DNA of 64,000 bases from an uncultured archaeon (GCA_963787445.1 CAWBCT010000005.1:384001-448000), one strand, 5' to 3'. Shown: positions 30,644 to 61,754, counted from the first letter of the stretch. Program-made: numbers and translations. Notes: generated from the sequence alone by a model not told the origin.

Positions 30644-32113
30644 TTATCCCACTCCAAAATACTTCCTTATCAGGGGGGCAACATCCAAAACACTCATTTT
30701 CTTGCTGTTTTTTGTGCTTGGGTATTCTCCGAATATCCCCTGCCGCGTATGGTCGCCGTGTTTCGGCCCTTCTGGTTTCATGAACAGATATTTTGGCGAA
30801 AAGTTGAATATGTCAAGCATGTAACCAGATTTCGCCTCTACAAAAAGATCTGGCGCCAGGAAGGGAGGGTTTGCGCCGTAGTACTCGCTTGCATCGTAAA
30901 CACCTTCTATTACGGATTTGCCGTTTGCGTTCTTCATTTTTGCTATCTTGTTAATCAGTTCCTTCTTGACCCTACCCTTTTCTCCCGCCTTTACAATGCC
31001 TTTGGAGAATCGGTGGTCATTTATCCAGATGGTTGCAACGTTAAGGTTTGAGATCGCCGCAAAGGCTGTTGTTTTGTCCATGTCGAAATCAAAAAGATGG
31101 ACCCGGGTGTACTCTTCTGAGCTCGCGGACGAGAGAACCTTGCTGAGCGATGCCCGCACCACCTTCTTCGCGCCCTGCGGAAGCAGATCGTAGGCTTTCC
31201 TGAGCCCGCTTTTCATCGCCTTCTCTCTTAGGGTGTAGGCGAGTGGGTTGCTCTTGCTGCTTGTGCCTTCCGGCTTGCTCTTGAGGGTCTCATTCAATAC
31301 CACATAGCCGTTGCTTACCATCCAGCCGTTGAGCAAAATTTTCTCCTTTATCGGCTGTGAGCCGTGGTCGGAAACAACGATCACCTTGCCGCTCTCCTTT
31401 TCCGCGCGCGAGACACAATAGCGCAGGAGGTCGTCCATGGCCTTGTATATTGGCAGCAGGTAGCTGTCGGCTTTGGGATGCCCCATGACGAAATGCTGTA
31501 TCCTGTCGGTTTCGGTGAAACAGACGTAAACAAAATCGTACTGTTTGTTCTCCATGGCCTTCTTTGCGATCGTGATGCGGGACTCTACGCTCTTCAGGAA
31601 GTGCTTTGCGCCCTCGTCTATCGACATCTTGCCGGCCTTCATGTCCTTCTCCACGTCCGGTTCCCCGTCAAAGTCGTGCTCTTTCATCAACTTTTTCAGG
31701 TATGGGTTGTTTGTCCTTGCCTTTAGGGGAAAGCCGGTGATCATGTCTGTGTTTGGAAATGTGGGCAGGGTGATGTTGGTCGCGGGAGTTATGAGGAGGC
31801 TCTTGTATCCTGCTTTCGAGAGGTCTTTCCAGAACGGCGGTGCCTTGTCAGGATCGTAGAATACCAGGTCTGGGGCGTAGTCTTTGGTCATTACAAAAAA
31901 GTCGGGAACGCCGTGCACTCCGGGGCCGTTCCCGGTGTACATCGCCGGCCAGGCTCCACCAGTCATGGGTGGCATGGTCGATTCCATCTCCTTTAGTGTT
32001 CCCTTGGCTGCGATTTTTGAAAAGCCAGGGAGTCTGCCGCCCTTTCCAAGCTCTTTTATAAGCCAAAGCGGGGCCGCATCGATGCCTATCAGATAAAGGG
32101 TCTTACGCTCGAT
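30644..32113 (-). CDS. alkaline phosphatase superfamily protein (type I phosphodiesterase/nucleotide pyrophosphatase-like); the N-terminus extends upstream of the first ATG (31987), probable ATC start
   Basis: IGIDAA upstream in frame; STMPPMT..W, TDRIQH, VSDHG, GDH motifs. Confidence 0.88.
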   Translation of the reverse strand: MERKTLYLIGIDAAPLWLIKELGKGGRLPGFSKIAAKGTLKEMESTMPPMTGGAWPAMYTGNGPGVHGVPDFFVMTKDYAPDLVFYDPDKAPPFWKDLSKAGYKSLLITPATNITLPTFPNTDMITGFPLKARTNNPYLKKLMKEHDFDGEPDVEKDMKAGKMSIDEGAKHFLKSVESRITIAKKAMENKQYDFVYVCFTETDRIQHFVMGHPKADSYLLPIYKAMDDLLRYCVSRAEKESGKVIVVSDHGSQPIKEKILLNGWMVSNGYVVLNETLKSKPEGTSSKSNPLAYTLREKAMKSGLRKAYDLLPQGAKKVVRASLSKVLSSASSEEYTRVHLFDFDMDKTTAFAAISNLNVATIWINDHRFSKGIVKAGEKGRVKKELINKIAKMKNANGKSVIEGVYDASEYYGANPPFLAPDLFVEAKSGYMLDIFNFSPKYLFMKPEGPKHGDHTRQGIFGEYPSTKNSKKMSVLDVAPLIRKYFGVG

Positions 32114-32192
32114 GAAATCTACCTTTACCTCTTCATGGTTTAAGAAGGTATTTATATCTAAACAGCGTATATTACTAGTTGTAGGTATCTCT

Positions 32193-32927
32193 ATGGCTTC
32201 GCGTCGTCCAACTAAAAAAATAGCCCGAAAGAAACCCGTTCATAGGAAGCATGAGCGTGTGAAGGTTCATGCCAAAAGGCATGCTGCCAGGCATCAGGTC
32301 TCCAGGAAGATAATTAAACGTGTTAAGCGCGTTCCGCACCGGAAGGTTGCGAAACCCATCAAGGTGAGGAAGGAAACGGCGCGGGAGATCCGCAAGAAGC
32401 TGGAGGCGAAGGAGAGCCTTGAGGCCTCGATGAAGGCCATAGATAGGACCAGGGAGATAATTTCAGACGGTGTTTTCAAAGAGCATCTTTCAAAAAACGT
32501 TGGGGGTGGGGCGGGGGCGATAGTGAACGCCCTTCTCGAGGGGCCGCTGGCCGACGAGAAACTTTCCGAGGCTCTCGGCATAAAGCCCAACGAGACAAGG
32601 CGCGTTCTTAATGTCCTGAACAGCTACGGCATTGTGCGCTACAACATCAACAAGGACAGCAACGGCTGGCTCACGTTCATCTGGTACATCGACCACGACT
32701 CGGTCATCACAGTGAGGGATCAGCTGCAGAAGAGCATAGAGGCGAAGAGGGCCCTTCCAGAGGACTGCAACGACTTCTTCGCATGCCCAAGCTGCTCTGC
32801 AAAGCATGCTGCGGTGCTTCCGTTCACGGATGCGTTCGAGGCCCTGTTCAAGTGTTCGTGCGGCAAGAGCCTGAAAAGGGTCAGCAAGGAGGAGGCGGAG
32901 AACATTTACAACTCCCCAGTAAGCTAA
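32193..32927 (+). CDS. tfe: transcription factor E alpha with long basic N-terminal extension
   Basis: DEKLSE..NETRRVLN WH, GWLTFIW, Zn ribbon CPSC...CSCG. Confidence 0.88.
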   Translation: MASRRPTKKIARKKPVHRKHERVKVHAKRHAARHQVSRKIIKRVKRVPHRKVAKPIKVRKETAREIRKKLEAKESLEASMKAIDRTREIISDGVFKEHLSKNVGGGAGAIVNALLEGPLADEKLSEALGIKPNETRRVLNVLNSYGIVRYNINKDSNGWLTFIWYIDHDSVITVRDQLQKSIEAKRALPEDCNDFFACPSCSAKHAAVLPFTDAFEALFKCSCGKSLKRVSKEEAENIYNSPVS

Positions 32928-32974
32928 TCCCAGGCGTGCCGTATTTATAAGTTTAGGGTTAATTCTAGAAACAT

Positions 32975-33049
32975 AGCGAGGTAGGGTAGCTCGGAGTGCC
33001 CGTCGGGCTCATAACCCGAAGACCGGTGGTTCAAATCCACCCCTCGCTA
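32975..33049 (+). tRNA. initiator tRNA-Met(CAT)
   Basis: A1-U72 pair; GGG/CCC in anticodon stem; CTCATAA loop. Confidence 0.95.
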
Positions 33050-33058
33050 TACCCCATG

Positions 33059-33153
33059 GTTCCACTAATAAAATAAGGCTGTTCCAACAAAGTATTGGAA
33101 TTATTAAAAATTAATATTTTATATATTATATAAGGACCGCCGAATAGTGGAAC
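33059..33153. other. candidate replication origin (inverted ORB-like boxes around an AT-rich unwinding element)
   Basis: GTTCCACTA at 33059-33067, its reverse complement at 33145-33153, GTTCCAA at 33081, AT-only tract ~33099-33133. Confidence 0.5.
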
Positions 33154-33170
33154 TGCACCCCGGTGCTCAT

Positions 33171-33632
33171 GTGAATGACGATGACATTTTAGAAAAACTT
33201 TACTCCCAACTTACGGAAGAGAGGAAGAGCGGTGAACTGGTGCCTCTACCCTCTGGATTCTATGCCAGCACGGCAAATACCACCGGCCTTAAAACCGAAG
33301 ACGTAGAGAGGATAAGGTCAAACAAAGACAAGCTATTAAATACTTTAAAAACAATACGTTTACAGAAGATCCTGATCTATTTGGCGTACAACAGGCAGCT
33401 GCCAAACCAGATGCCCGAAGAGGAGGAAAAGCTTTATAAGAAACTCAAGGCAACAATAGAAGAGGAGAAAGGGATAGCCCAGGAAACGGTAACGATCCTG
33501 GCCGACCTTCCGGAAGTGATCTCTCCGGATGGGAGCAAGCTCGGCCCCTACAGGAAAGGAGAGACCATAGCAACAACACCCAACGAACTGGCATTCATAC
33601 TGAAAAACAAGATAGGAGAACAAACGAGGTAA
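33171..33632 (+). CDS. GINS subunit (Gins15/51-like)
   Basis: ERKSGELVPLPSGFY, RLQKI, EEEKLY, B-domain DGSKLGPYRKGE; upstream of rpl44e. Confidence 0.8.
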   Translation: MNDDDILEKLYSQLTEERKSGELVPLPSGFYASTANTTGLKTEDVERIRSNKDKLLNTLKTIRLQKILIYLAYNRQLPNQMPEEEEKLYKKLKATIEEEKGIAQETVTILADLPEVISPDGSKLGPYRKGETIATTPNELAFILKNKIGEQTR

Positions 33633-33636
33633 TCTT

Positions 33637-33918
33637 ATGAAGATAGCAAAAGACATAAACGCGTACTGCCCCTACTGCAACAAACACACACCGCACCTAG
33701 TGAAGAACGTACAGAAGAGCAAGCAGCGCGGACTGAGCAAGGCCACCAGGAGGCACAACCGCGCAATTCGCGGGTATGTGGGAAGCGTAGAGCTCAAGCT
33801 GCACCCGAAGAAGCTCGGCAAGCGCCAGAAGGTTCTCCTTGAGTGCAAGACCTGCAAGAAATCCGTCGAACGCGTATTTGGAAAGAGGACAAAGAAGAAG
33901 CTTGAGATAAAGCGGTGA
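33637..33918 (+). CDS. rpl44e: 50S ribosomal protein eL42 (L44e)
   Basis: YCPYCNKHTPH...LECKTCKK. Confidence 0.95.
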   Translation: MKIAKDINAYCPYCNKHTPHLVKNVQKSKQRGLSKATRRHNRAIRGYVGSVELKLHPKKLGKRQKVLLECKTCKKSVERVFGKRTKKKLEIKR

Positions 33919-33922
33919 ACGC

Positions 33923-34693
33923 GTGATAGTAAAAAAGACGCTGCCTGCGGACAAGGAACTAGTCCTCGTTAAGATAACGAAAATCCTGCCCCACGGCGCC
34001 TACTGCACGCTTACGGACTACAACCTCGACGCATACCTGCCCATATCGGAGATAGCCTCCGGTTGGATCAAGAACATACACGAGTTCATAAAGGAGGGCC
34101 AGAAGGATGTCGCCCGCGTAATCTCTGTGGACCGCGAGAAGAACGTGGTGGACGTTTCGCTGAAGAAGGTCACCAAGAAGGAGCGGGAAGACAAGATCTC
34201 GGAGCAGAACACGGAAAAAAGGTCGGAGATGCTCTTCGAGCAGTCGCTCAAGCTTTCGAACACGCTAGAGAAAAAGGAAAAGATAAAGGAAGAGCTGCTC
34301 ACAAAGGTCGAGAGCTATTCGGAACTGGTCAGCAAGGTCGCGGAGAACAAAGAGTTCCTCTCCTTCTTGAAAAACAAGCCGTTCGCCGACGCCTTTACCG
34401 AAACCGTGATCAAGAACATAAAGCCAAAGCACTACGAGGTCTCCTACCTGGTGGAGCTCAGGAGCATAAACTCCCGCTCGGGAATAACGACCATCAAAAA
34501 GATATTTGGAGAGATAGAGCAGATGGGTGTTAAGGTGCTGTACGTGGGTGCGCCGAGGTACCGCCTGAGTTCTGAAGGGTCAAGCTACCCCGATGCCGAG
34601 GAGAGGATAAAAGAGGCAAGGAAGACCCTGGACGCAAACTCAAAAAGCATTGCGTACACAATAAAAGCCGAGAAATTGCCCAACAACAACTGA
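33923..34693 (+). CDS. eif2a: translation initiation factor 2 alpha
   Basis: S1 domain HGAYCTL, ISEIASGWIKNI, VDVSLK, GAPRY. Confidence 0.96.
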   Translation: MIVKKTLPADKELVLVKITKILPHGAYCTLTDYNLDAYLPISEIASGWIKNIHEFIKEGQKDVARVISVDREKNVVDVSLKKVTKKEREDKISEQNTEKRSEMLFEQSLKLSNTLEKKEKIKEELLTKVESYSELVSKVAENKEFLSFLKNKPFADAFTETVIKNIKPKHYEVSYLVELRSINSRSGITTIKKIFGEIEQMGVKVLYVGAPRYRLSSEGSSYPDAEERIKEARKTLDANSKSIAYTIKAEKLPNNN

Positions 34694-44939: not shown

Positions 44940-44949
44940 GGGCTTTCCA

Positions 44950-45024
44950 TGGGCCCGGTGAGATTTGAACTCACGACATCTGGCTTATAAGACCAGCGCT
45001 CTGACCAGGCTGAGCTACGAGCCC
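44950..45024 (-). tRNA. tRNA-Ile(TAT)
   Basis: cloverleaf GGGCTCG/CGGGCCC; anticodon arm CTGGT-CTTATAA-GCCAG. Confidence 0.93.
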
Positions 45025-45105
45025 ATGTGAATAGAATTAAGCCGCAATAAGATAGATATACGTTATTGTCCCATTATTATCTATATACTTTTTGTAAGTG
45101 TGAAA

Positions 45106-59725: not shown

Positions 59726-60520
59726 ATGGACAGTGAACCTAACCCAGAGCAGAAGCCGCCTGTAGCGCACCCTTCTATACTAAAAGTTATAGACCAGCGT
59801 AAGCGCGTGAAGGAACGACTCTCCGGGATAAAGAACAAGGTCGGAGTTTACAGCGCAAAAGGCGGCGTTGGAAAGACAACGACCGCAGTTAATCTGGCAT
59901 TCACCCTAAAATCAATGGGCTATTCTGTAGGTCTTCTTGACGCCGACATAGACTGCCCGAATGTTGCAATGTTTATCGGCATAGACAAGATGGCTGACGA
60001 CTCCTATCCCCTCAAACCCATAGACAAAGATGGCGTAAAGATAATCTCAACGGCGATGTTTGTAGATGACAACAAAAAGCCGATAATTTGGAGAGGGCCG
60101 ATGATTGGAAAGATGATTGCGGACTTTTTGGAGAACACAGAATGGGGAAATCTTGATTACCTAATAATAGATCTTCCTCCAGGAACGAGCGATGCACCAC
60201 TGTCGATAATACAGCTGCTTGACCTCAAGGGTTTCGTTCTCGTCACAACCCCGCAGCACATTCCTGCGATAAACGCGATAAGATCTGGGATGATGGCGAA
60301 ACGCCTCGGCGTCCCTCTAATCGGGGTGGTAGAGAATATGTCAACCGGCTTACCAAGGGGCGGAACCGAGGTCGCAACAACGCTTGGCTGCGACCTGCTG
60401 GGAGTTATAAAAAACAACCCAACCCTGTCAGAAGCCAGCGACGCCGGAAAGATCGCCGTAATTGAAGATAAACAGATAAGGGAGGAATATTTAAGTATAG
60501 CAAAGAAAATTATACAGTGA
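59726..60520 (+). CDS. Mrp/Nbp35-family ATPase lacking the C-terminal CxxC
   Basis: KGGVGKT, IIWRGPM, DLPPGTSD, VENMS. Confidence 0.9.
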   Translation: MDSEPNPEQKPPVAHPSILKVIDQRKRVKERLSGIKNKVGVYSAKGGVGKTTTAVNLAFTLKSMGYSVGLLDADIDCPNVAMFIGIDKMADDSYPLKPIDKDGVKIISTAMFVDDNKKPIIWRGPMIGKMIADFLENTEWGNLDYLIIDLPPGTSDAPLSIIQLLDLKGFVLVTTPQHIPAINAIRSGMMAKRLGVPLIGVVENMSTGLPRGGTEVATTLGCDLLGVIKNNPTLSEASDAGKIAVIEDKQIREEYLSIAKKIIQ

Positions 60521-60524
60521 TAGC

Positions 60525-61754
60525 ATGGCAGAGCCGTTTGCGGATTTATTCAAGGATTCAGCGATATTCGCAAACCGCGAAGTGCTTTCACCACACTACC
60601 TGCCGAATAATCTGCTTTTCAGGGACAAGCAAATCCACGAGATAGAGAAGTCATTGACTCCTTCCCTACGAGGCGAGCGCGGAAGGAACGTTTTCATCTA
60701 CGGAAAGACCGGCACCGGAAAGACCTCGTGTGTCAAGCATGTAGTCGAAAAAGTGAAGGTTCTCCCAATACTCAAGGCGAAGATCTCCTATGTGAACTGC
60801 AGAATATACAACTCCAGGTACCGCGTGCTGGGGAAGATAGCGAGCGACCACATACCCCTCTACGCGAAGCGCGGCTACGGCGTAATCGACATATACGAAA
60901 GGATAATCAACTGGATCGAGGAGGACAGCAAGGTCCTCGTAGTCGTGCTGGACGAGGTCGACATAGTCCGGGACCTTGACGACCTTATTTACACGCTCAC
61001 CAGGGCGAACAGCGACATCAAGGCAGGCGGGATAACGATTGTCGGAGTGTCAAACAAGATCTCCTTCAAGGAAGTGCTGGACCCGCGCAGCCTCTCAACC
61101 CTTTACGAGAACGAACTCGTATTCCCTCCATACAACTCATCGGAACTCGCATCTATACTGACCCAACGTGTCGCCCAGGGATTCAAACCAAACGTCGTAG
61201 ATCCCGCGTCCGTGAACCTGGCTGCGGCAATAGCGGCAAAAGAGAGCGGAGATGCAAGACTTGCACTAAAGATCATCTCAAAGGCCGGAGAGATAGCCGA
61301 TGAAGGAGGATTGAAGTCAATTACGCCAAAAGAAGTGAACGAGGCGGCGCACCTTGCCGAAGAGGAGATCGCCTACGAGCTCATTGGCACCCTGCCGGAG
61401 CACCAGCGCCTGATAATATACGCCATAGCGCTCATGTCACTGAGCGGCGGCAAGTACCGAAAGCTGACGAGCAACCAGGAGGACGAGGCCTTCCTGCTCA
61501 GCGGGGAGATCTACGACAGGTACGTCTCCATCGCCCGCTCGCTCAACAAGGAGCCCAAGAGCTCGCGCTTCTACAGGCGCTACATAGTCGACCTGGAGAT
61601 GCAGGGCATAATAACCACCTACACTTCCGGCAAGGGGGTTCGGGGCCACACCCGGCTAATCCGCCTGAGCTACCTGCCGGACAAGATCAAACTCATGATA
61701 GAAAAGGGGCTGTTCAAGGAGAACGAGGCCGAGGAAGTGTCGAAACCGGCCTGA
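60525..61754 (+). CDS. cdc6: Orc1/Cdc6 replication initiator
   Basis: GKTGTGKT, LDEVD, FPPY, GDAR, C-terminal WH. Confidence 0.96.
   Translation: MAEPFADLFKDSAIFANREVLSPHYLPNNLLFRDKQIHEIEKSLTPSLRGERGRNVFIYGKTGTGKTSCVKHVVEKVKVLPILKAKISYVNCRIYNSRYRVLGKIASDHIPLYAKRGYGVIDIYERIINWIEEDSKVLVVVLDEVDIVRDLDDLIYTLTRANSDIKAGGITIVGVSNKISFKEVLDPRSLSTLYENELVFPPYNSSELASILTQRVAQGFKPNVVDPASVNLAAAIAAKESGDARLALKIISKAGEIADEGGLKSITPKEVNEAAHLAEEEIAYELIGTLPEHQRLIIYAIALMSLSGGKYRKLTSNQEDEAFLLSGEIYDRYVSIARSLNKEPKSSRFYRRYIVDLEMQGIITTYTSGKGVRGHTRLIRLSYLPDKIKLMIEKGLFKENEAEEVSKPA

What the first reader, a model, noticed from the sequence alone, without database searches (positions are those of the whole stretch)
33059..33153. 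Candidate chromosomal replication origin not adjacent to cdc6
Seen: inverted GTTCCACTA 9-mers (33059-33067 and 33145-33153) plus TTCCAA-N7-TTGGAA flank a ~35-nt stretch of only A/T, between initiator tRNA and GINS. Housekeeping gene orientation flips here. To the left, the dnaK operon, ribosomal operon, rps8e, thrS and metG point left. To the right, GINS-L44e-aIF2a, radA, srp54, cdc6 and the proteasome/exosome genes point right. Established: archaeal origins have inverted ORBs (GTTCCAGTGGAAAC-like) around a DUE. Inference: oriC with divergent mini-ORBs, in a lineage whose origins are poorly characterised; cdc6 is ~27 kb away.
Basis: partly seen in the sequence, partly recalled or inferred. Interest (0 to 1): 0.75.

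Follow-up and report, generated by a model that had tools for sequence, protein, structure and literature searches.

The report
Minimal replication origin of Micrarchaeota
A 111-base stretch between the initiator tRNA gene and the GINS gene, made of two inverted 19-base boxes around an A/T-rich core, is most likely the chromosome's replication origin in this order of tiny archaea, and it lies far from the initiator gene cdc6.

Summary
The 9-mers are the cores of two inverted 19-nt boxes (33051-33069 and 33143-33161) around a 73-nt spacer of 25% GC. That spacer holds the only A/T-only run of 30 nt or more in the 1.05 Mb assembly.

The module tRNA-iMet, box, A/T spacer, box, GINS recurs in all 28 GINS loci recovered from 31 genomes of the order (Ca. 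Micrarchaeota), with spacers of 73-125 nt. An exact pattern finds it in 41/54 and 50/74 genomes of two families, against 24/172 elsewhere in the class.

The arms show no compensatory covariation, so they read as protein sites rather than an RNA stem. Strand composition at third codon positions switches sign at this locus in four genomes at replichore scale. cdc6 lies 27-103 kb away.

The polarity is the reverse of the bacterial one. However, rRNA, ribosomal-protein and RNA polymerase genes point away from the locus in 9 of 10 cases, and the opposite switch is diffuse. Both favour origin over terminus.

The box shares the TTCC core and a C-string with Pyrococcus ORBs but lacks the second half of the dyad. 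Verdict: an ORB-type origin, new variant, predicted in silico only (confidence about 0.8).

The parts
32112..32927 (+). TFE (TFIIE-alpha homologue), the conserved left neighbour; about 110 aa K/R/H-rich N-terminal extension
   Evidence: Pfam PF02002 E=1.5e-11; translation. Its C-terminal coding sequence is visible upstream of the tRNA in most relatives.
32974..33050 (+). Initiator-type tRNA-Met(CAT), the left landmark; the left box starts right after its 3' end
   Evidence: ARAGORN; Rfam tRNA 62.7 bits at 32975-33049. Present upstream of GINS in 28 of 28 loci.
33051..33069 (+). Left ORB-like box ACCCCATGGTTCCACTAAT; C-string distal and TTCC..TAWT proximal to the spacer
Evidence: PWM score 24.1 bits, the best in the whole assembly.
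33070..33142 (.). A/T-rich spacer, candidate duplex-unwinding element; 73 nt, 25% GC
   Evidence: Spacers in relatives are 73-91 nt in 26 of 28 loci, with GC 0.12-0.34 against 0.26-0.51 for the surrounding locus.
33082..33100 (.).
   Evidence: upstream regions compared by eye.
33099..33133 (.). 35-nt A/T-only run
   Evidence: The only A/T-only run of 30 nt or more in the 1,048,747-base assembly.
33117..33133 (.). Alternating TA / TATA-like element, 9 nt inside the right box. Candidate first-melting site and/or GINS promoter TATA box.
   Evidence: The module box-C(G/A)-N7-10-TTATATWATATA sits on one arm in nearly all 28 genomes, GINS side or tRNA side.
33143..33161 (-). Right ORB-like box (reads GGGGTGCAGTTCCACTATT on the minus strand); the outer half is the G-rich variant
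Evidence: PWM 16.2 bits. The AGGGT variant appears in 7 of the 56 arms used for the matrix, or 8 counting this GGGGT arm, and in 3 further arms of the L44e-anchored set.
33171..33632 (+). GINS (Gins51-like) gene. Probable start GTG 33171, preceded by GGTG at 33162-33165. The open frame also allows GTG 33147, inside the box.
   Evidence: ORF list. Pfam Gins51_C 2.2e-5 and Sld5 6.9e-4, both below cut-off. N-termini of relatives. Followed by L44e 33637-33918 and aIF2-alpha 33923-34693.
60525..61754 (+). Orc1/Cdc6, the only copy found in the assembly; presumed trans-acting initiator, 27 kb from the boxes
   Evidence: Single Cdc6_C match in the assembly. Pfam Cdc6_lid and Cdc6_C. Best solved relatives 2qby_A (1.8e-65) and 2v1u_A (9.9e-57).

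Best explanation
The 111-bp module at 33051-33161 is the chromosomal replication origin of this Micrarchaeota genome and of its order. Two inverted 19-nt boxes (consensus A-C-C-C-Y-n-C-A-n-T-T-C-C-R-S-T-A-W-T) flank a 73-nt A/T-rich core. The proposed mechanism follows.

1. Inferred: each box binds one monomer of the single Orc1-1-type Orc1/Cdc6 protein, which is encoded 27 kb away and acts in trans.
2. Inferred: the two oppositely oriented initiators load MCM onto the spacer, whose alternating-TA element melts first.
3. Partly shown by strand composition: forks leave in both directions.
4. Inferred: because the right box lies between a TATA-like element and the GINS start, initiator binding may also gate transcription of the GINS-L44e-aIF2alpha operon.

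Shown here: the anatomy, its conservation, its uniqueness in the genome, the absence of an RNA-stem signal, and the coincidence with a replichore-scale switch in strand composition. Not shown here: protein binding and actual initiation.
For: Conservation. All 28 GINS loci recovered from 31 genomes of the order carry tRNA-iMet, two inverted boxes and an A/T-rich spacer. The spacer is 73-91 nt in 26 of them, and 104 and 125 nt in the other two. C12, C13, T16 and A17 are invariant in 56/56 arms. In an L44e-anchored set of 31 Micrarchaeota loci, 25 have the pair; 18 of those have arm sequences not in the first set. The exact pattern TTCCNNTAWT-N65-95-AWTANNGGAA matches 41/54 genomes of family f1 and 50/74 of f3. 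It matches 24/172 genomes of other families of the class, against 12/172 for the reversed-pattern control.

One locus per genome. The left box is the top PWM hit in G000, and the next hits are scattered at 16-17 bits. The only A/T-only run of 30 nt or more in the assembly lies in the spacer.

Protein site rather than RNA stem. Across 46 genomes the two arms of one genome are no more alike at variable positions 2-8, 14, 15 and 18 than arms drawn from different genomes. Potential G-U pairs number 37 and 34 of 221 mismatches on the two strands, which is the chance rate. Rfam finds only the tRNA.

Replication signal. After the coding effect is removed, the cumulative minimum of the third-codon (AT3-GC3) component falls next to the locus. 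It is -173 nt away in G000, -84 nt in G024, +583 nt in G013, and after the gene just left of the tRNA in the single-contig genome G026. Genes pointing away from the locus differ in composition from genes pointing toward it, symmetrically on both arms (G026 AT3 p=4.5e-52; G000 GC3 p=4e-20). With genes within +/-15 kb left out, the best step still falls inside that window in 3 of 3 assessable genomes. In G000 the 31 genes between the locus and cdc6 already have right-arm composition (p=8e-12 against the left arm).

Origin rather than terminus. The uL2 cluster (4/4), 16S rRNA (3/3 assessable) and rpoB (2/3 assessable) point away from the locus. uL2 also points away in 5/5 further genomes. Of coding bases within 400 kb, 53-57% point away. 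The switch here is sharp, while the opposite one spreads over about 100 kb.

Initiator. The one Cdc6 is closest to the ORB-binding S. solfataricus Cdc6-1 and A. pernix ORC1.

Motif. The box shares CATTTCCACT and a C-string with the P. furiosus ORB1/ORB2 oligonucleotides printed in PMC1904270. The layout ORB-DUE-ORB is the core of Sulfolobus oriC1 (PMC12141716, introduction).
Against: No experiment supports the call; everything rests on sequence.

Polarity is the reverse of the bacterial rule. Raw cumulative GC skew on C5 peaks here, and to the right of the locus the plus strand is A>T and C>G at third positions. By the convention quoted in PMC7111523, a peak marks a terminus.

The all-gene strand bias is weak: 47-63% depending on genome and window size. 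rpoB of G000 points toward the locus. The uL2 results are linked by conserved synteny, so they are not independent.

In a fifth genome, G311 (800 kb of 929 kb read), only the AT3 minimum sits at the locus. The combined measure is dominated by an odd segment at 680-740 kb.

The box lacks the 'GAA' half of the ORB dyad that PMC1904270 calls perfectly conserved, and its C-string lies about 6 nt closer to TTCC. There are only two boxes, and no initiator gene is adjacent; the review PMC4010727 treats adjacency as typical. The PWM was built from the same loci it scores, so those scores are partly circular.
Confidence: 0.8

Rival explanations
1. The locus is the replication terminus, or a fork-convergence point, rather than the origin. 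The boxes would then be something else, such as a fork trap or a resolution site.
For: The raw cumulative GC skew has its maximum here. Right of the locus the plus strand is C>G and A>T at third positions, which in bacteria marks the lagging strand. PMC7111523 states that the cumulative curve peaks at the terminus.
Against: Nine of 10 assessable highly expressed markers would then be head-on to the forks. Only 43-47% of coding bases would be co-directional. The switch here is sharp, and the opposite one is spread over about 100 kb and lies in a low-GC region in G026. PMC12999951 reports that in H. volcanii, whose origins are mapped, third-codon and non-coding GC skew run opposite to gene strand bias, so inverted polarity has a precedent in archaea. 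Inverted ORB-like boxes around the most A/T-rich stretch of the genome are origin anatomy. From recall, a Xer/dif site has arms only 6-8 nt apart, not 73 nt or more.
Confidence: 0.08
2. The module is only the promoter and operator of the GINS-L44e-aIF2alpha operon. The boxes would be sites for a transcription factor, and the true origin would lie elsewhere within about 15 kb.
For: A TATA-like element lies 9 nt upstream of the right box, and the right box sits between it and the GINS start. The skew signal alone localises the switch only to about +/-15 kb.
Against: In about half of the genomes the box-proximal TA element lies on the tRNA side and faces away from GINS. That does not fit a dedicated GINS promoter. 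The box pair occurs once per genome, not as a regulon. No other origin-like feature (repeat cluster or long A/T run) lies nearby. Origin and promoter roles are not mutually exclusive.
Confidence: 0.06
3. The inverted repeats form a long-range RNA stem, such as a processing stem of a tRNA-GINS co-transcript or a regulatory 5' structure.
For: In some genomes the arms are perfectly complementary over 17-19 nt (L010, L029). In many genomes the right G-string doubles as a Shine-Dalgarno-like sequence.
Against: There is no compensatory covariation. Positions 14-15 differ freely between the arms of one genome. G-U pairs are at the chance rate and equal on both strands. In G000 and at least five relatives the outer halves of the arms are not complementary. 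Rfam gives no match.
Confidence: 0.02

Closest known systems
Sulfolobus oriC1 core (ORB3-DUE-ORB2, bound by Orc1-1)
   Same: Two inverted initiator boxes flank an A/T-rich unwinding element. Each box binds a monomer with defined polarity, and both boxes are needed in vivo. The DUE carries an extra asymmetric motif, the ucm (PMC12141716, introduction read). The G000 Cdc6 is closest to Sso Cdc6-1 (2qby_A).
   Different: That origin lies directly upstream of its initiator gene cdc6-1 and has a third ORB (PMC4010727 passages). Here cdc6 is 27-103 kb away and only two boxes are detectable. No homologue of the ucm or of UBP was looked for.
Pyrococcus oriC ORB1/ORB2 and mini-ORBs
   Same: Both share the core CATTTCCACT and a run of C on the same side. 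Both have an inverted ORB pair and A/T-rich regions (PMC1904270 passages).
   Different: Pyrococcus ORBs are 34 bp and complete the dyad (TTCCACTGGA), with 'GAA' conserved. They are accompanied by many 13-bp mini-ORBs and sit next to cdc6. The Micrarchaeota box is 19 nt and ends in TAWT instead of GGAA. By comparison with the printed oligonucleotides, its C-string is 3-4 nt from TTCC rather than about 9.
Haloarchaeal oriC1 (ORBs with a G-string)
   Same: Inverted ORBs with a terminal G/C-string that is essential for function (PMC4010727). An inverted third-codon GC skew relative to gene strand bias is reported for H. volcanii (PMC12999951).
   Different: Linked to cdc6, with longer ORBs and multiple origins per genome.
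Origin of the DPANN archaeon Ca. Forterrea predicted by skew
   Same: A DPANN genome with a two-replichore cumulative skew (PMC5905446 passages).
   Different: [quoted passage not shown] Here it does not.
Gins15-L44E-S27E-aIF2alpha-Nop10 supercluster (Berthon et al. 2008)
   Same: The gene context to the right of the module is this archaea-wide replication/translation cluster (PMC2643942 passages; Pfam).
   Different: The passages I read do not place an origin beside that cluster. They place predicted origins next to cdc6.

Membership tests
Archaeal ORB-type replication origin (oriC1 type) | A/T-rich unwinding element flanked by inverted repeats | tested here: met
   Boxes at 33051-33069 and 33143-33161, spacer 25% GC with a 35-nt A/T-only run. 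The same layout is present in 28/28 loci.
Archaeal ORB-type replication origin (oriC1 type) | ORB core motifs 'TTCC' and 'GAA' (dyad), as defined in PMC1904270 | tested here: not met
   TTCC is met (C12 and C13 in 56/56 arms, T11 in 54/56). The second half is T-A-W-T, not GGAA/GAA. This is a half-dyad box.
Archaeal ORB-type replication origin (oriC1 type) | G/C-string beside the core | tested here: met
   ACCCC in most arms and the variant AGGGT in a minority. Its spacing to the core is shorter than in the P. furiosus oligonucleotides.
Archaeal ORB-type replication origin (oriC1 type) | Initiator gene (cdc6 or whiP) adjacent to the origin | tested here: not met
   cdc6 lies 27 kb away in G000, 79 kb in G026 and 103 kb in G024, and is not on the same contig in G013.
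Archaeal ORB-type replication origin (oriC1 type) | Strand-composition switch at the site | tested here: met
   Switch at the locus in G000, G026, G024 and G013. Only the AT3 component shows it in G311. Polarity is the reverse of the bacterial rule.
Archaeal ORB-type replication origin (oriC1 type) | Specific binding by Orc1/Cdc6 and initiation of DNA synthesis at the site | not testable with these tools
   Needs EMSA, footprinting, ChIP, marker-frequency analysis or 2D gels. Only contig-level DNA runs were on offer.
Archaeal ORB-type replication origin (oriC1 type) | An Orc1-1-class initiator is encoded in the genome | tested here: met
   One Cdc6_C match in the assembly. Best solved relatives are 2qby_A and 2v1u_A.
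Structured RNA / processing stem | Base pairs kept by compensatory changes | tested here: not met
   Shuffle test on 46 genomes with G-U counts; no Rfam family.
Xer/dif resolution site | Two short arms separated by a 6-8 nt central region (recalled, not taken from a call) | tested here: not met
   Arms are 73-125 nt apart. Xer genes were not searched.
Archaeal promoter (BRE/TATA) of the GINS operon | TATA-like element about 25 nt upstream of the transcript start, oriented toward the gene | tested here: inconclusive
   The TA element at 33117-33133 is suitably placed in G000. Across the 28 genomes a strict TA-run score classed the box-proximal element as tRNA-side only in 7, GINS-side only in 8, on both arms in 11 and on neither in 2. 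No RNA data were available.

The most novel reading that the evidence does not exclude
In this order the ancestral link between origin and initiator gene has been lost, and the origin has shrunk to a two-box module of about 110 bp. It is embedded in the control region of the GINS-L44e-aIF2alpha operon, so that initiator occupancy could couple origin firing to expression of a helicase cofactor and translation factors. The asymmetric TA-rich core has been flipped repeatedly during evolution, plausibly by recombination between the origin's own inverted boxes. That would make this an invertible origin core.
Probability: 0.3. Interest if true: 0.75.

Novelty: new variant of a known kind. Interest (0 to 1): 0.6.

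Why it matters
In the library I searched, no paper describes a replication origin in Micrarchaeota. For another DPANN lineage, a skew-predicted origin next to cdc6 is in print (PMC5905446). Origin finders for archaea lean on ORB clusters beside cdc6 (PMC4010727, PMC4164010 listing), so they would probably miss this site.

A conserved and very small origin gives a defined DNA fragment and a single initiator protein for binding and helicase-loading tests. It also gives a fixed reference point for growth-rate estimates from metagenome coverage, and an anchor for checking assemblies of these genomes. Finally, it shows that in this lineage skew polarity cannot be read by the bacterial rule.

Tried and rejected
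- RNA structure: Rfam found only the tRNA, and the covariation and G-U tests were negative.
- Expression data: no RNA holder was listed. The four DNA runs are contigs only, so depth is uninformative. They show only that one contig spans 31418-33281 without any difference, and that a strain variant covering 33030-33675 has its listed differences at 33230 and beyond.
- Coverage peak: not obtainable, because read laying takes at most 20 kb and no raw reads were on offer.
- The search for related loci with the GINS alignment failed because no stretch was conserved enough. I used L44e instead.
- Automatic best-inverted-repeat search was erratic in the A/T-rich spacers. I replaced it with consensus scoring.
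- Gene strand bias by all ORFs gives no global flip in C5 and only 47-63% co-orientation.
- Exact repeated 11-mers found no ORB-like cluster in non-coding DNA. A pair of TTCCNNNGGAA on C12 belongs to direct repeats whose three detected copies start 279 and 561 nt apart, overlapping small ORFs. It is not an origin-like inverted pair.
- Idea dropped: that GINS translation starts inside the right box (M-E-L-H-P). The N-termini of relatives fit GTG 33171 better.
- Earlier notes of this scan returned nothing.
- A fifth genome could be read only to 800 kb of 929 kb.
- Structure and complex prediction were not used. The complex tool as described offers no DNA chain.

Full report
**Observation**

The window is G000:C5:384001-448000, from a 1,048,747-base assembly of 19 contigs that is 82% complete.
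- GTTCCACTA lies at 33059-33067 and its reverse complement at 33145-33153.
- TTCCAA-N7-TTGGAA lies at 33082-33100.
- An A/T-only run of 35 nt spans 33099-33133.
- tRNA-Met(CAT) at 32974-33050 is on the left.
- A GINS-like ORF is on the right, with Gins51_C at 2.2e-5 and Sld5 at 6.9e-4, both below Pfam's cut-offs. It is followed by L44e, aIF2-alpha and PAC2.
- The gene on the left is TFE.
- cdc6 is at 60525-61754, directly after an Mrp/NUBPL-type P-loop ATPase gene.

The 9-mer repeat alone is not beyond chance. The window holds 31 such repeats against 25.4 +/- 7.3 in shuffles, and P is about 0.04 for this region. The A/T run, by contrast, is unique in the whole assembly. The claimed flip of gene orientation is weak: 17 of 33 ORFs on the left are on the minus strand, and 21 of 36 on the right are on the plus strand.

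**Anatomy and conservation**

A GINS search in 31 genomes (G000 and 30 relatives of its order, 0.6-1.1 Mb each) found the gene in 28. In all 28 loci the upstream region has the same layout:
- tRNA-iMet;
- a 19-nt box;
- an A/T-rich spacer;
- the same box in reverse complement;
- then GINS.

The box consensus from the 56 arms is A-C-C-C-Y-n-C-A-n-T-T-C-C-R-S-T-A-W-T. C12, C13, T16 and A17 are invariant, T11 is present in 54/56 arms and T19 in 55/56. The C-string is distal to the spacer and TTCC..TAWT is proximal. Spacers are 73-91 nt in 26 of 28 loci, and 104 and 125 nt in the other two. Their GC is 0.12-0.34 (mean 0.22) against a mean of 0.40 for the surrounding loci.

In G000 the boxes are 33051-33069 (24.1 bits) and 33143-33161 (16.2 bits). 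The second has a G-rich outer half, a variant also seen in a minority of arms in relatives.

A second sample was anchored on L44e. It gave 31 loci whose record titles name Ca. Micrarchaeota or Micrarchaeaceae (two titles carry bacterial names). Of these, 25 have the pair at 14 bits or more with spacers of 71-89 nt. Three have one box, two have none, and one lacks the upstream sequence. Seven of the 25 repeat arm pairs already seen, which leaves 46 distinct pairs in all.

An exact pattern for the inner halves (TTCCNNTAWT-N65-95-AWTANNGGAA) matched 116 of 301 genomes of the phylum sample.

| Group | Genomes with a match |
|---|---|
| Family f1 | 41/54 |
| Family f3 | 50/74 |
| All other families | 24/172 |
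| Reversed-pattern control, other families | 12/172 |

These tallies include the genomes G211 and G046, which the tool flags as unpublished. Five genomes from other families of the class have GINS, but neither the tRNA motif nor a box lies within 1.5 kb of it. Among the genomes searched, the module is therefore a trait of this order.

**One locus per genome**

The position matrix finds no second site in G000 above 17 bits. No cluster of repeated 11-mers lies in non-coding DNA. The canonical dyad TTCCNNTGGAA occurs twice in the assembly, is never clustered, and is absent near cdc6.

**Protein site or RNA stem?**

In 46 genomes the two arms of one genome are no more alike at the variable positions (2-8, 14, 15, 18) than arms taken from different genomes. 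Only positions 9 and 10 carry lineage-specific letters shared by both arms. Where the arms differ, a G-U pair would form in 37 of 221 cases on one strand and 34 of 221 on the other, which is the chance rate. In G000 and several relatives the outer halves are not complementary at all. Rfam finds only the tRNA. This is the signature of a sequence motif read by a protein in two orientations.

**Replication signal**

Raw cumulative GC skew on C5 rises to about 415-420 kb, stays on a plateau to about 450 kb, and then falls. To separate replication from coding effects, I took third-codon skews per ORF, subtracted the mean coding-strand effect, and signed the result by strand.
- In G000 the GC3 component is positive from 125 to 420 kb and negative from 420 to 659 kb. 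The AT3 cumulative curve has its minimum in the bin 400-420 kb.
- In G026, a single contig of 952,257 bases, the AT3 component is positive from the locus (905.7 kb) through the contig ends to about 400 kb. It is negative from about 440 to 900 kb.
- G024 (contig of 438 kb) and G013 (587 kb) behave likewise.
- At gene resolution the cumulative minimum of AT3-GC3 lies -173 nt from the locus in G000, -84 nt in G024 and +583 nt in G013. In rotated G026 it falls after the gene just left of the tRNA.
- Genes pointing away from the locus differ from genes pointing toward it, equally on both arms. In G026 the AT3 means are 0.176 and 0.165 against 0.008 and 0.042 (p=4.5e-52). In G000 the GC3 means are -0.073 against 0.045 (p=4e-20).
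- Divergent, highly expressed clusters next to the locus could pin the minimum artificially. I therefore left out all genes within +/-15 kb. The best step still falls in that window in G000, G026 and G024. G013 has too little sequence on one side to judge.
- In G000 the 31 genes between the locus and cdc6 already have right-arm composition (p=8e-12 against the left arm). The switch is therefore not at cdc6.
- cdc6 is 27, 79 and 103 kb from the locus in G000, G026 and G024.
- A fifth genome, G311, is weaker (800 of 929 kb read). Its AT3 minimum is at the locus, but its GC3 curve is dominated by an odd segment at 680-740 kb.

**Origin or terminus?**

The polarity is opposite to the bacterial rule, under which the cumulative curve peaks at the terminus (PMC7111523 passages). 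Here the strand leaving the locus is A>T and C>G at third positions. Skew polarity is not reliable in archaea. PMC12999951 (results section and passages read) reports that in H. volcanii, third-codon and non-coding GC skew run opposite to gene strand bias. It adds that this lack of correlation is more common in archaea than assumed.

Independent evidence favours the origin.
- The uL2 ribosomal cluster points away from the locus in 4 of 4 genomes.
- 16S rRNA points away in 3 of 3 assessable genomes. G013 counts here because its 16S gene lies beyond the second switch.
- rpoB points away in 2 of 3 assessable genomes.
- uL2 lies 5-7 kb from the locus and points away in 5 of 5 further genomes (G314 is flagged unpublished). 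These cases share synteny, so they are not independent.
- Of coding bases within 400 kb, 53-57% point away.
- The switch at the locus is sharp. The opposite one spreads over about 100 kb and, in G026, lies in a segment of 28-33% GC.

**Comparison with known origins**

The review PMC4010727 (passages read) defines archaeal origins as an A/T-rich region flanked by ORBs beside an initiator gene. The introduction of PMC12141716 gives the functional core of Sulfolobus oriC1 as ORB3-DUE-ORB2. There each ORB binds one Orc1-1 monomer with polarity, and the DUE holds an extra motif.

The P. furiosus ORB1 and ORB2 oligonucleotides printed in PMC1904270 share CATTTCCACT and a C-run with the present box. 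They differ in continuing with GGA, which completes the dyad, and in having their C-run about 6 nt further away. That paper calls 'TTCC' and 'GAA' perfectly conserved.

The single Cdc6 of G000 is closest to the two initiators solved on ORB DNA, 2qby_A (1.8e-65) and 2v1u_A (9.9e-57). The module therefore works like an ORB origin, but it fails two family criteria: the dyad and adjacency to the initiator gene. The gene context on the right is the known Gins15-L44E-aIF2alpha supercluster (PMC2643942 passages).

**An asymmetry worth noting**

One arm is followed inward by C(G/A), 7-10 further bases, and an alternating TA element such as TTATATWATATA. In G000 this is the right arm, with the element at 33117-33133. 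A strict TA-run score over the 28 genomes gave the following:

| Position of the box-proximal TA element | Genomes |
|---|---|
| tRNA side only | 7 |
| GINS side only | 8 |
| Both arms | 11 |
| Neither arm | 2 |

Reading by eye for the full motif (box, C(G/A), N7-10, TA run), I count about 13 genomes with it on the GINS side and 15 on the tRNA side. Both orientations occur in each of the two families. This suggests that the core has been inverted several times, plausibly by recombination between the boxes (inference). It argues against the TA element being only the GINS promoter.

The GINS start is probably GTG 33171, preceded by GGTG at 33162-33165, judging from the N-termini of relatives.

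**Prior reports**

Four full-text searches found no paper on an origin in Micrarchaeota:
- Micrarchaeota with 'origin of replication';
- DPANN with 'origin recognition box';
- Micrarchaeota with Cdc6 or GC skew;
- Micrarchaeum or Mancarchaeum with oriC, replication origin or Orc1.

For the DPANN archaeon Ca. Forterrea, a skew-predicted origin next to cdc6 is in print (PMC5905446). Subscription journals and supplementary files were not searchable.

**Verdict**

This is most likely the single chromosomal origin, of ORB type, in a compact form unlinked from cdc6 and conserved across an order of Micrarchaeota. My confidence is about 0.8. The main remaining doubt is origin against terminus, and a coverage profile would settle it.

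Noticed in passing
G000:C5:1-80000 (outside the window): The first 80 kb of the contig have 63-71% GC against about 52% for the rest. This may be a chimeric join, a contaminant or a foreign island. I left this part out of the G000 skew tests.
   Followed up: no
G000:C5:100900-123100 (outside the window): About 22 kb of minus-strand coding sequence, densely repeated (6212 repeated 11-mer triplets), with raw GC skew 0.23-0.37. It looks like one or more giant repeat proteins.
   Followed up: no
window 32112-32927: The TFE homologue has a K/R/H-rich N-terminal extension of about 110 residues ahead of its TFIIE-alpha domain (residues 126-201). Its true start codon is uncertain.
   Followed up: partly
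window 44949-45025 (minus strand): ARAGORN calls a tRNA-Ile with anticodon TAT. From recall, most archaea read AUA with a modified CAU tRNA instead, so this may be of interest for decoding in this lineage.
   Followed up: no
window 59726-61754: cdc6 follows an Mrp/NUBPL-type ParA P-loop ATPase gene with a gap of only 4 bases. There is no room for an upstream origin of the usual kind.
   Followed up: partly
G000:C12:87-1100 (outside the window): Direct repeats whose three detected copies start at 87, 366 and 927 (279 and 561 nt apart), overlapping small ORFs. Each unit contains TTCCTCCGGAA.
   Followed up: partly
G026:C1:400000-430000 (loci L051-L052): A segment of 28-33% GC in a 39% GC genome lies where the strand-composition component changes sign gradually. 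It is a candidate terminus zone or an acquired island.
   Followed up: no
G311:C1:680000-740000 (loci L201-L203): The third-codon GC component reaches 0.16-0.46 over 60 kb, far outside the rest of the genome. This swamps the combined skew measure there.
   Followed up: no
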